This document shows positions 6,001 through 9,000 of a stretch of 64,000 bases of DNA, piece by piece. Origin of the DNA: Carcharhinus amblyrhynchos (taxonomy: Eukaryota). Location: contig OZ336900.1 of the NCBI GenBank assembly GCA_965287045.1, forward strand, positions 12,524,001 through 12,588,000, in the 5' to 3' direction. Position 1 is the first letter of the stretch. Each line of letters begins with the position of its first letter. The position numbers are program-made.

Positions 6001-9000
6001 GGCCAAACACATCTTATGGTGAAATACATAGATGCTGTGAAGGAGCGTAACAAATGTCCAAAAGTAGTGTCCAAAATATATTTGGAATGTACAGATTCAT
6101 CTTTGTAATCCTATCACATCATAGAGAAAATAGAACAAAGTTCAAACTTTGCGTCCTTGTTTGTGGGATTCCTTTTTATGTTTTCTTGCGTTTTGCCACA
6201 TTTGTGTTTTTGCAGGAACAAAACTATTTTGTTTGTTTTATGTTTGCCAAGTTGGAATGTTTCCTTTTGTTTTTGTTGCAACCTGTTTGTTCCTACCATG
6301 GCGTTTGATTGAAATGTTCTCTTGTTGTTTACAGAGGTGCCAAGCGGTAAAACTCTCTTCATTTACTTTCCAACCAATCTCAACTTTCTCTTCAATTCTT
6401 TACATCTTCTAGCTTTGCTATGCATTTCCCAGAGTGCTCATTCTTTTACTCTCACCAAGTCAGCAGGATAATACTAAATAACATCATATTTTAGTCAACT
6501 TTTGACATTTATAGTTTTTTTTAAACTTCTTGTCCTTGCACTAATTTGTGCGGGGGAAAAACGTGATATTTGCATATATTTTTCTGGATGGTCCTTCATT
6601 CTTCACTGTCTCACAGATTGTGTCTCCAACATTCCATATGAAAACCTTTGCTGCCGTAAACTTTTATTCCACCCCATCCCCCATGATGATGTAATGTAAA
6701 TGTCAGTCAGCCAAGATGCTATTATGCTGTCTGCTTGTCAAAGTCTTCAACTGATGTCTTACACATTGTCTGTCTTCAGATTTTCATACACTTAAACAGT
6801 ATTTAATGTTGTCTGTGGATTCATTGAAAAGAAAAAATGAACAGTCACAAATTTATTTCATTAGCTAATTAATGATTTTTTTTAAAACAATGATCATTTT
6901 AATATGTCCTGATGGTAACTGCTCATGTTTCATACTTACATAGTCAATTCACTAAATGTGGAAATACATATTTCAGAAGCAGTTTTTTGCCATTTCTTCA
7001 CAGTTTTTCTTGCTTTAGCAAGCTTGCAGATTGTCTCCCAACCCACTATTAAAGACAGCCACTTGTCATCTGCGCCCACCCACCCCCCCACAGCCAAACC
7101 CTGTTTGCTGCTTGACATTGAGTGAAATATTAATGCATGAAATAAATTAATGTTTTGGCAGTATCCTTTTAGTCTAAAGATACCAATTTGAATCTTTGAA
7201 TTTTTTCATGATTTTTGTTTCAATTTTTCAAGCCTCATTTGATTGCTGACCCAACTAGCATAGTAGCTCCTTGCTTATTCTCTTTTTGTTCCATGGATTG
7301 CCCCTTTCTTCCTCCTCTTTTGCTTTGTGTCTGTTCCTTGCCTCCTTCCTTTGTCTGACTCCAAGCTTGTGTGCAGTGATATATGTAAAACAAAAATAGG
7401 AGAGTTTCCAGTGCCATTCAGCCATCCAACACTAGTTCCTGCAGTCACACATGGCTTGCAATGGTTGTACCTCTATTTTTGGTGCTGTTTGTTGCATATT
7501 GTTGTTCTGTGTGTGTTTGTGGTGAAAGCATGTCATTACCACAGTGAACTGAACTCTATACCAACAGAAATTTGCTTCCTGGGATTACTCTGTGATTTTC
7601 TAGTTAAAATTTAATCTGTTAATAAGTCAACCTTGTATGAACAGTTTGCTGATATATGGAAATCTATACTGAGACTTGGTTTTTATTAATTTATATTCTA
7701 ATTACAGTGCCAATTGAATATTAGATTGGATCTGATCTCTGCAGAAATCAGATCCCTATTCATAAAGAAAGAAAAGCTTACATGAATATGGAGGCACATA
7801 CACCAGTGTACAATGTGTACATACATACAGGGGTCTAAATTATAAAAGTACACATCATGCAGTTTAAGCCTGGATTATGGTACCAAGACCTTGTATGAGT
7901 GATAACACATAGTTAAGTGCTTTTTTCTTGTACTATGAATATTGTACATAGCTTGATGTTATTAGTAAATGACATAATCGTATATATGAGAAGTACAAGT
8001 TATTTTCACCTAACTAGCTATGATGCTGTTATATATATCATGATTTATGATATAAACTGCATTATTTATATTTTACTCTTTGAAAAACCTTGTGGAGCAT
8101 CTTTTGTGCAACATTCTTAGTGTTTTGTCCGACAATAGTGCTGTATGGAAGGTCCATACACATTTGATTCACCTGAAACATCAACTGTAAACTATCTTTT
8201 AAAAACTCTGTTCAAAGATATCAATAATGAACTGGATACCCACAACTCAACATATCTGGATTCAAGCTTTAGAATTCATTTCATGAAGTAGGGTTATTAG
8301 AACACATAGTCAACATTACAGCTTAGCTATTTCTCTCCAGTTGGGACATGTCTAAATGAAAGTTATATTTCAGTATGGTTCATTCAGTGGTAAGATGTTA
8401 CATAAATGAAAGTTAGAATTTTTTTTATTAGTTGCTATAAAGTTACCTGATTTCAAATGAAGCATCAGTTTATAGAAGTAGAATAATATTAGCAGATTCT
8501 CGACAATTCAGAATATGCGCAGTGGGATATTCCATATGTGTTATGTTGGAAATGAAACAGTAACTTTTAACAAAAGTGGAAAATGTTGGAAATACACAGC
8601 AAATGAGAGCTGGCACATAAACAGCTTAAGGAGGTTAGAGGGATAAAAGATGATGAGGGAATATCAGAAGGTGCAGTCACAGAGAGGAAGCTACTGGATT
8701 AAGTGATTTATGAACCGCTTTATTGAAAATCAGGAACTATTAGATGAAATTTAAAAAAGCTTGTGAGACAATAAAAATACTTGAAACAACATGTAGATTG
8801 CTAAAATGGCTCACAAGAAAATGGGGAAAATTGAGAAGTGAAGGTCAGTGCAGTAAATCTAAAATAAGAACAAAAATACATCCATGAAACTCATTAGCTT
8901 TGATGCTCATGGATCTGTCTGGTTTTGATTCAGATTTTCTTTATATTTCTGCTAATGAATTTTGATTTTAAAAGCAGAATTGCCATTCTATTTGAAAATG

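What the first reader, a model, noticed from the sequence alone, without database searches (positions are those of the whole stretch)
6335..6346. 12-nt 'GAKR' microexon: shark counterpart of the mammalian SRKR exon, without its serine
Seen: an AG/GT-bounded 12-mer in the right intron and phase, converting ESSILINPG to ESRGAKRILINPG. Known: mammalian Slo1 has a 12-nt SRKR cassette here that alters gating in a phosphorylation-dependent way via the adjacent constitutive Ser. Inference: the microexon predates the shark-mammal split. The shark version loses the inserted Ser and one Arg, and inclusion also swaps the junction Ser for Arg. Gene predictors would probably miss it.
Basis: partly seen in the sequence, partly recalled or inferred. 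Interest (0 to 1): 0.7.

Follow-up and report, generated by a model that had tools for sequence, protein, structure and literature searches.

The report
Shark version of BK SRKR microexon
A 12-base mini-exon hidden in an intron of a shark's BK potassium-channel gene is the cartilaginous-fish counterpart of the well-known vertebrate "SRKR" exon, and public catshark and skate channel sequences already contain the peptide it encodes.

Summary

- **The sequence:** AGGTGCCAAGCG at 6335-6346 (+) has a good acceptor (…ttgttgtttacag) and a GT donor. It lies in the 7,755-nt intron between two BK (KCNMA1/Slo1) RCK1 exons (2903-2971 and 10727-10813). Inclusion keeps the frame and turns ESSILINPG into ESRGAKRILINPG.
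- **Chance:** AG/GT bounding alone is ordinary (25 such 12-mers in the intron, about 28 expected). This one ranks first of 25 on a crude splice score. It is also the only site in 64 kb that can encode this peptide (0 of 100 shuffles gave any).
- **Position:** Solved BK structures place the known 4-residue SRKR insert at exactly this exon junction.
- **Decisive evidence:** A Scyliorhinus retifer BK protein reads ESRGAKRILINPG. Two skate records read RGAKC at the same point. A further 124 bony-vertebrate records read RSRKR and the coelacanth reads RSQKR.

The microexon therefore predates the shark/bony-vertebrate split and is used in cartilaginous fishes. The constitutive serine that mediates the mouse effect is retained, and the lost serine was dispensable in mouse. 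There is no RNA evidence for this species, which is a hemiscylliid-like shark. Its function in sharks is inferred. This is an ordinary orthologue of a known exon, of modest interest.

The parts
2903..2971 (+). Constitutive BK/KCNMA1 RCK1 exon (69 nt). It encodes [22 protein letters not shown] plus the first two bases (AG) of the split junction codon. The final Ser is the counterpart of mouse S642.
   Evidence: sequence, acceptor tttacag|G, donor CAG|gtgagt. (22 aa match BK chains, E=2.3e-5 to 3u6n). (0 mismatches to Hemiscyllium and Chiloscyllium BK).
6185..6334 (+). U-rich upstream intronic flank. It includes the polypyrimidine tract, an 81-nt stretch free of AG (6252-6332) and the acceptor AG (6333-6334).
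   Evidence: T = 0.48 against an intron mean of 0.33 (sd 0.06), which is the top 1.1% of intron 150-nt windows and the top 0.14% of the whole window. (sequence: AG at 6250-6251, then none until 6333-6334); acceptor score 5.2, within the range of the other exons scored (-0.8 to 7.2). UGC at -58 and -90.
6335..6346 (+). 12-nt cassette microexon AGGTGCCAAGCG. It enters and leaves after codon position 2. With the flanking bases it reads R-G-A-K-R in place of the skipped-form S.
   Evidence: The identical peptide ESRGAKRILINPG is in P0025 (S. retifer BK) at the same junction.
6347..6352 (+). Donor site GCG|GTAAAA. It is weak, with A rather than G at +5.
   Evidence: crude donor score 0.1, against 5.4-9.3 for three constitutive exons scored correctly the same way.
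10727..10813 (+). Constitutive BK exon (87 nt). Its first base C completes the junction codon (AG|C = Ser when skipped, CG|C = Arg when included). It then encodes [28 protein letters not shown].
   Evidence: (28 aa match BK chains, E=2.3e-11)..

Best explanation
The 12-mer is the chondrichthyan orthologue of the vertebrate KCNMA1 (Slo1/BK) splice-site-1 'SRKR' cassette microexon.

Shown: it lies in the orthologous intron, has the same length and phase, and has intact splice signals. Public catshark and skate BK proteins contain exactly the peptide it encodes.

Inferred mechanism: when the microexon is spliced in, four residues are added to a loop near the C-terminal end of RCK1, and the junction Ser becomes Arg. 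The local sequence changes from E-S-S-I-L-I to E-S-R-G-A-K-R-I-L-I, a gain of three basic residues, the same net gain as in mammals (R to RSRKR). This moves the conserved Ser (mouse S642) away from the hydrophobic ILI strand. By analogy with mouse BK-SRKR, that Ser would then be open to phosphorylation, which lowers channel activity (right-shifted G-V, slower activation, faster deactivation).

The serine missing from the shark insert corresponds to mouse S644, which was dispensable in mouse, so the switch could still work. Inclusion is probably regulated, given the weak donor, the long AG-free and U-rich upstream flank, and the existence of both forms within one skate species. The regulators are unknown.
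For: Position: searches show one residue between the exon matches in insert-less chains and five in SRKR-bearing chains.

Sequence and phase.

Beyond chance: the site ranks 1st of 25 AG/GT-bounded 12-mers. It is the only site in the window able to encode the peptide, and 0 of 100 shuffles gave a match.

Use in mRNA-derived or modelled proteins of other cartilaginous fishes: P0025 S. retifer has RGAKR. P0035 A. radiata X7 and P0028 L. erinacea have RGAKC. P0028 has the length (1119 aa) and species of the cDNA that King et al. amplified from skate ampullae mRNA (passages).

Alternative use: A. radiata X4, X6, X8, X11-X13, X15 and X16 lack the insert while X7 has it. L. erinacea X14 lacks it while the cDNA has it.

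Deep conservation: 7 turtle and alligator records plus 117 further bony-vertebrate records read RSRKR. Latimeria X1 reads RSQKR.

Function in mouse: PMC3840924.

Context: the region is unique in the window and not a repeat. The upstream flank is unusually U-rich.
Against: There is no RNA evidence from this species.

All 14 listed cluster representatives from the three species whose BK matches the window without mismatch lack the insert. These are Hemiscyllium ocellatum X3 and X6, Chiloscyllium punctatum X9 and X10, and C. plagiosum X23-X28 and X31-X34. Only 1 selachian record (P0025) has it.

The donor is weak. No GCAUG lies within 400 nt on either side, and no UGC lies closer than -58, so no known regulator can be assigned.

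Two of the four inserted residues differ from SRKR, and basic residues are fewer next to the Ser. Conservation of the phospho-switch is therefore an analogy and not a result.

Skates end the insert in Cys rather than Arg, so the exact charge pattern is not fixed.
Confidence: 0.88

Rival explanations
1. It is a chance pseudo-exon. An AG/GT-bounded 12-mer sits in the right intron but is not spliced into mRNA in this shark.
For: AG-N12-GT 12-mers are as common as chance predicts (25 found, 28 expected). The donor is weak. None of the 14 listed isoform representatives of the best-matching species has the insert.
Against: The 12-mer encodes exactly the five residues found at this junction in the S. 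retifer BK protein. A site able to do so occurs once in 64 kb and in 0 of 100 shuffles. It ranks first of 25 on splice score and has an unusually U-rich upstream flank.
Confidence: 0.04
2. The microexon is real and used, but in cartilaginous fishes it does not act through the mouse-type Ser phosphorylation switch. It could alter gating directly through loop length and charge, or affect trafficking. The skate BK authors suggested that the mouse SRKR insert might create an extra nuclear localisation signal.
For: Two of the four inserted residues differ from the otherwise near-invariant SRKR (124 RSRKR records, 1 RSQKR). Skates have Cys at the last position. The effects of SRKR differ between human, chick and turtle clones and depend on other exons (PMC3840924). 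The NLS idea is raised in PMC10486799 (passage).
Against: The constitutive Ser before the insert is conserved in every record examined. The residue lost (mouse S644) was dispensable in mouse. The net gain of three basic residues is kept in sharks. Nothing about trafficking was tested, here or in the cited paper.
Confidence: 0.3
3. The insert in the public chondrichthyan records is an artefact of assembly or modelling, and does not reflect a real isoform.
For: P0028 has other oddities in the same stretch: one residue missing in the upstream exon, and IF in place of IL. P0035 is a computed RefSeq model.
Against: Three independent records from three species agree on R-G-A-K. An independent genome (this window) holds a splice-competent 12-mer encoding it in the correct intron and phase. 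An artefact would not predict that.
Confidence: 0.03

Closest known systems
KCNMA1/Slo1 splice-site-1 'SRKR' cassette exon of bony vertebrates (human, mouse, chick, turtle, zebrafish)
   Same: It lies at the same exon junction. It has the same 12-nt length and the same phase. It has the same R-x-x-K-R frame once the split codons are read, and the same conserved Ser immediately before it. Both included and skipped forms exist (PMC3840924).
   Different: The inserted residues are G-A-K-R rather than S-R-K-R, so the internal Ser and one Arg are missing. In sharks the skipped form has Ser rather than Arg at the junction codon, because the downstream exon starts with C. Inclusion therefore also changes that residue. 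The function in sharks is untested.
Skate BK insert RGAKC (Leucoraja erinacea cDNA-derived protein P0028; Amblyraja radiata isoform X7, P0035)
   Same: The position is the same and the first four residues, R-G-A-K, are the same.
   Different: The last residue is Cys rather than Arg. This would follow from TG in place of CG at the end of the microexon. That is an inference, as no skate DNA was seen.
Coelacanth BK isoform X1 insert RSQKR (P0107)
   Same: The position and length are the same. It is another lineage-specific departure from SRKR.
   Different: It keeps the Ser and changes only the middle Arg, to Gln.
SRRM3/4-dependent neural microexons
   Same: It is very short (12 nt), preserves the frame, sits in a neuronal ion-channel gene, has a long U-rich upstream flank with a long AG-free stretch, and is conserved across jawed vertebrates.
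   Different: The donor is weak, where that class is described as having strong 5' splice sites. The nearest upstream UGC is at -58 (class features from bioRxiv 10.1101/2024.09.17.613571, passages). That paper does not mention KCNMA1 (0 occurrences).

Membership tests
Vertebrate BK channel alpha subunit gene (KCNMA1/Slo1) | The exons encode the RCK1, linker and RCK2 sequence of BK alpha, in order and on one strand. | tested here: met
   Seven exon peptides (285 aa), each handled on its own, match named shark BK proteins with 0-4 mismatches in total. tblastn places public BK proteins colinearly on the + strand. PDB hits are to BK chains. The hits carry Pfam BK_channel_a and RCK domains.
KCNMA1 splice-site-1 (SRKR) cassette microexon | It lies in the intron between the exon ending …RES and the exon beginning ILINPG. 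| tested here: met
   SRKR-bearing chains have 5 residues between the two exon matches and insert-less chains have 1.
KCNMA1 splice-site-1 (SRKR) cassette microexon | It is 12 nt long, preserves the frame and is bounded by AG and GT. | tested here: met
KCNMA1 splice-site-1 (SRKR) cassette microexon | It encodes the tetrapeptide S-R-K-R. | tested here: not met
   It encodes G-A-K-R, so 2 of 4 residues are shared and 3 of 5 when the junction Arg is counted. All 124 insert-bearing bony-vertebrate records other than the coelacanth read RSRKR. It is therefore an orthologue by position and phase with a divergent sequence.
KCNMA1 splice-site-1 (SRKR) cassette microexon | It is included in some mRNAs and skipped in others. 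| tested here: inconclusive
   This is met by proxy in other cartilaginous fishes: P0025, P0028 and P0035 have the insert and 62 of 65 representatives do not, with both forms present in A. radiata. No transcript data for the window's own species could be reached.
KCNMA1 splice-site-1 (SRKR) cassette microexon | Inclusion lowers channel activity through phosphorylation of the constitutive Ser before the insert. | not testable with these tools
   The Ser is conserved. The effect is shown only for mouse (PMC3840924).
SRRM3/4-dependent neural microexon programme | There is a UGC motif between the branch point and the AG, and a strong 5' splice site. | tested here: inconclusive
   UGC lies at -58 and -90, and the -58 copy is inside the 81-nt AG-free stretch. 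There is none closer, and the donor score is 0.1. The class features come from one search, which also reports that UGC is absent from about a quarter of such microexons.
RBFOX-enhanced cassette exon | There is a (U)GCAUG in the downstream intron near the exon. | tested here: not met
   There is no GCATG within 400 nt on either side. The motif itself is recalled.

The most novel reading that the evidence does not exclude
In cartilaginous fishes the microexon-included channel may be the main BK isoform of the ampullary electroreceptor. The skate clone that carries the insert has the length and species of the cDNA amplified from ampullae of Lorenzini mRNA. From memory, the catshark record also comes from an electroreceptor study. 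The serine-less, less basic RGAK(R/C) version could then be a lineage-specific retuning of the RCK1 loop that helps set BK gating for electroreception. It would also be a natural test of which features of SRKR the phospho-switch needs.
Probability: 0.15. Interest if true: 0.55.

Novelty: new member of a known kind. Interest (0 to 1): 0.3.

Why it matters
The result dates one of the classic BK splice sites to before the split between cartilaginous fishes and bony vertebrates. It also shows that the insert, almost invariant as SRKR in bony vertebrates, was free to change in cartilaginous fishes while the preceding serine, the length and the phase were kept.

This gives a natural variant for asking what the mouse phospho-switch actually requires. 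It also flags a 12-nt exon that the listed isoform models of the best-matching shark species do not contain.

It is an incremental point about annotation and evolution. The exon class, its position and its mammalian function are well known, and the chondrichthyan peptide is already in public protein records.

Tried and rejected
- **Flanking exons as protein-search queries:** I used another single exon of the same gene (49087-49209).
- **Cluster members:** The 100-member S. canicula cluster and the 17-member A. radiata cluster therefore stay unopened.
- **Papers not held:** King et al. 2016 (PMC4724458) and Bellono et al. 2017 (PMC5354974) are not held. I could not see what they say about this site. 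I did not look up Bellono 2018 by id.
- **Literature searches for the peptide:** RGAKR/RGAKC/GAKR/RSQKR gave 520 papers, of which 15 were listed. RGAK together with kcnma1 gave 21 papers, of which 10 were listed. No listed paper is about BK splicing. I did not see the unlisted ones.
- **Preprints checked:** the skate preprint 10.1101/274449 has no occurrence of SRKR, RGAK or GAKC. Two skate papers mention SRKR only for mouse.
- **Short-protein search:** 40 hits. Judged by name and identity only, none was a chondrichthyan record with the insert. I did not inspect those sequences.
- **Regulator motifs:** no GCAUG within 400 nt on either side, and no UGC near the acceptor.
- **Other features near the site:** no Rfam family in 1-12000. 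No repeats of 40 nt or more in the intron. The stop-free stretches on both strands around the site are low-complexity and matched nothing I tested.
- **Spliced model of the window:** I did not build one or search with it. Exons were searched one at a time, and full-length comparisons used public proteins only.
- **Cross-species intron alignment:** not possible.

Full report
**What is there.** On the + strand the window carries a run of exons of a BK channel alpha-subunit gene (KCNMA1/Slo1).
- The exon at 2903-2971 encodes [22 protein letters not shown] and ends with the two bases AG, followed by a consensus donor (CAG|gtgagt).
- The next constitutive exon starts at 10727 with a C that completes the codon, then encodes [28 protein letters not shown]. 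It ends at 10813, because its donor GT is at 10814-10815.
- In the 7,755-nt intron between them lies AGGTGCCAAGCG at 6335-6346. It is preceded by tgttctcttgttgtttacag and followed by gtaaaa.
- Reading only the junction codons, skipping gives ESSILINP and inclusion gives ESRGAKRILINP.

**Is it more than chance?** AG/GT bounding alone is not. The intron holds 25 AG-N12-GT 12-mers against 28 expected, and 20 of them have no stop in the needed phase. Several other results do set this site apart:
- It ranks first of the 25 on a crude splice score (5.3; the next is -3.6). The score uses approximate consensus frequencies recalled from memory, so only the ranking should be trusted.
- Its acceptor scores like those of the gene's other exons (5.2, against -0.8 to 7.2). 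Its donor is weak (0.1, against 5.4-9.3 for the three exons scored with correct ends).
- A splice-bounded 12-mer able to encode these residues occurs once in the 64 kb on either strand, here. None of 100 shuffles produced one.
- The 412 nt around it are unique in the window, and the intron has no repeats of 40 nt or more.
- The 150 nt upstream are 48% T, against an intron mean of 33% (sd 6%). That is the top 1.1% of intron windows and the top 0.14% of the whole window.
- No AG occurs between 6252 and 6332.
- No Rfam family matches in 1-12000, and nothing of note lies on the minus strand.

**Position relative to the known cassette.** I searched the two flanking exons separately against solved structures. 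I did not build or search a spliced model of the window. That joined step was left out.
- Both exons hit BK chains (26 and 27 distinct sequences).
- In insert-less chains one residue separates the two matches (3mt5: 217-238 and 240-267; 6v22: 556-577 and 579-606).
- In the zebrafish gating ring 3u6n, and in 7ynz/7yo1, five residues separate them (238 then 244; 577 then 583).
- Shelley et al. 2013 (PMC3840924; passages read) state that the zebrafish structure contains the SRKR insert.

The known 4-residue cassette therefore falls exactly at this exon junction.

**Decisive comparison.** The flanking exons are too short for the protein search, so I queried with another single exon (49087-49209, 41 aa). 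That search gave 492 hits, of which the best 120 were listed. I dropped the 10 unnamed records and examined the junction in the 110 named ones.

| Group | Records | Junction |
|---|---|---|
| Chondrichthyan, no insert | 62 of 65 | ESSILINPG |
| P0025, Scyliorhinus retifer BK (UniProt A0A2U8ZUN9) | 1 | ESRGAKRILINPG |
| P0035, Amblyraja radiata X7 (17-member cluster) | 1 | RGAKC |
| P0028, Leucoraja erinacea (A0A0U1ZAI9) | 1 | RGAKC |
| Other vertebrates, turtle and alligator | 7 of 45 | RSRKR |
| Other vertebrates, Latimeria X1 | 1 of 45 | RSQKR |
| Other vertebrates, no insert | 32 of 45 | |
| Other vertebrates, odd extra Ser | 3 of 45 | |
| Other vertebrates, motif not found | 2 of 45 | |

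P0028 is 1119 aa. That is the length and species of the cDNA that King et al. amplified from mRNA of skate ampullae (bioRxiv 10.1101/274449, passage). That the two are the same record is my inference.

I ran a second search with the public protein P0025, restricted to residues 584-640. It gave 5,605 hits, of which the best 120 were listed. P0025, P0035 and P0028 ranked first. The other 117 all read RSRKR. They come from teleosts, gar, bichir, sturgeon and paddlefish, lungfish and mammals. The same query against shorter proteins added nothing chondrichthyan, judged by names and identities only.

**Which animal.** Seven exon peptides (285 aa), each compared on its own, gave these mismatch totals:
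- 0 to Hemiscyllium ocellatum, Chiloscyllium punctatum and C. plagiosum BK;
- 1 to Mustelus, Cetorhinus, Heterodontus and Stegostoma;
- 3 to S. retifer;
- 6-12 to skates;
- 25-27 to coelacanth and turtle.

The window is from a shark, most likely a hemiscylliid carpet shark. It is not human. All 14 listed isoform representatives of those three species lack the insert. Whether other isoforms of theirs have it stayed unchecked, because cluster members could not be listed.

**How it most likely works.**

*Shown:* orthologous position, length, phase, splice signals and coding identity with a catshark BK protein. Both forms exist within A. radiata.

*Taken from the literature:* Shelley et al. 2013 report the following.
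- In mouse, SRKR right-shifts the G-V relationship, slows activation and speeds deactivation.
- The effect needs the constitutive S642 just before the insert.
- S644A, which removes the serine inside SRKR, changes nothing.
- The authors propose that the insert moves S642 out of a beta-strand into a loop and away from the hydrophobic ILI.
- Variants with and without SRKR were cloned earlier from human, chick and turtle.

*Inferred for the shark:* the S642 counterpart is retained and the same ILI follows. The insert adds three basic residues net, as in mammals. The missing serine is the dispensable one. The same switch could therefore operate. However, two of four residues differ and skates end the insert in Cys, so this remains an analogy.

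*Regulation is unassigned:* there is no GCAUG within 400 nt, and the nearest upstream UGC is at -58. Features described for SRRM3/4-dependent microexons are a strong 5' splice site and a UGC between branch point and AG in about three quarters of cases (bioRxiv 10.1101/2024.09.17.613571, passages). These features are not clearly present.

**Novelty.** The exon class, its site and its mammalian function are long known. The chondrichthyan peptide is already in three public protein records. I found no text describing it:
- The peptide-string searches listed no BK paper (15 of 520 listed; 10 of 21 listed).
- The skate preprint has no occurrence of SRKR or RGAK.
- Two skate papers mention SRKR only for mouse.
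- King 2016 and Bellono 2017 could not be read, so an earlier description there cannot be excluded.

I file it as a new member of a known kind, a correct and tidy annotation point of modest interest.

**What stayed unchecked.**
- Transcript evidence in this species.
- DNA-level conservation of the 12-mer and its flanks in other cartilaginous fishes or tetrapods, because no vertebrate genome collection was available.
- Holocephalans and cyclostomes.
- The members of the large clusters.
- Any functional effect.

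Noticed in passing
window 20696-20866 (+), within the open stretch 20636-21115: A STREX-type alternative exon (…KMSIYKRMKLACCFDCGRCERDCTCMSDSVHSNLDTLERTFPLSSVSVNDCSTSLRAF…) is present. It matches the insert of Scyliorhinus canicula isoform X6 (P0046) through 50 exact 8-mers.
   Followed up: partly
window about 37716-37745 (+): There is a counterpart of the short alternative exon at the STREX site that reads PKYGYNGYISSI in the S. retifer protein (3 exact 8-mer hits). Rays read PRYGYNGYLSSI. A skate preprint calls PRYGYNGYLSTI an insert unique to one skate clone. 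I did not determine the exon boundaries.
   Followed up: partly
window 15259-45382 (+), not located: Eight chondrichthyan isoform representatives have a 3-residue IYF insert at the STREX site, and others have IYS fused to longer inserts. The 9-nt exon that would encode it should lie in this window, but I did not search for it.
   Followed up: no
window about 459-841, 2337-2550, 5387-5732, 12491-12778, 13658-13940, 56059-56421, 58869-59224: A recurring interspersed repeat shows up as similar open stretches (…GSLSVWSLH…SAWVSSGCSGF…) in several introns. It is probably a SINE or LINE-derived family of the shark genome. None overlaps the microexon region.
   Followed up: no
proteins P0035 and P0028 (skates), junction residues: Skates read RGAKC where the shark reads RGAKR. 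A CG-to-TG change in the last two bases of the microexon would give this. That is an inference only, as no skate DNA was available.
   Followed up: no
proteins P0070, P0114, P0118 (Crocodylus porosus, Chrysemys picta bellii, Pelusios castaneus; UniRef records): These three records have an extra Ser at the same junction ([10 protein letters not shown]). This may be a 3-nt alternative acceptor or a modelling artefact at the microexon site.
   Followed up: no
protein P0028 (Leucoraja erinacea), residues about 570-588: Compared with other skate records, the cDNA-derived skate protein lacks one residue in the upstream exon (EYKNTRES rather than EYKSNTRES). It also reads IFINPG rather than ILINPG. 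These may be sequence errors or real variants.
   Followed up: no
window 10813/10814: The exon downstream of the microexon ends at 10813, with its donor GT at 10814-10815. It is therefore 87 nt long and ends in phase 2, like the exon at 2903-2971.
   Followed up: yes
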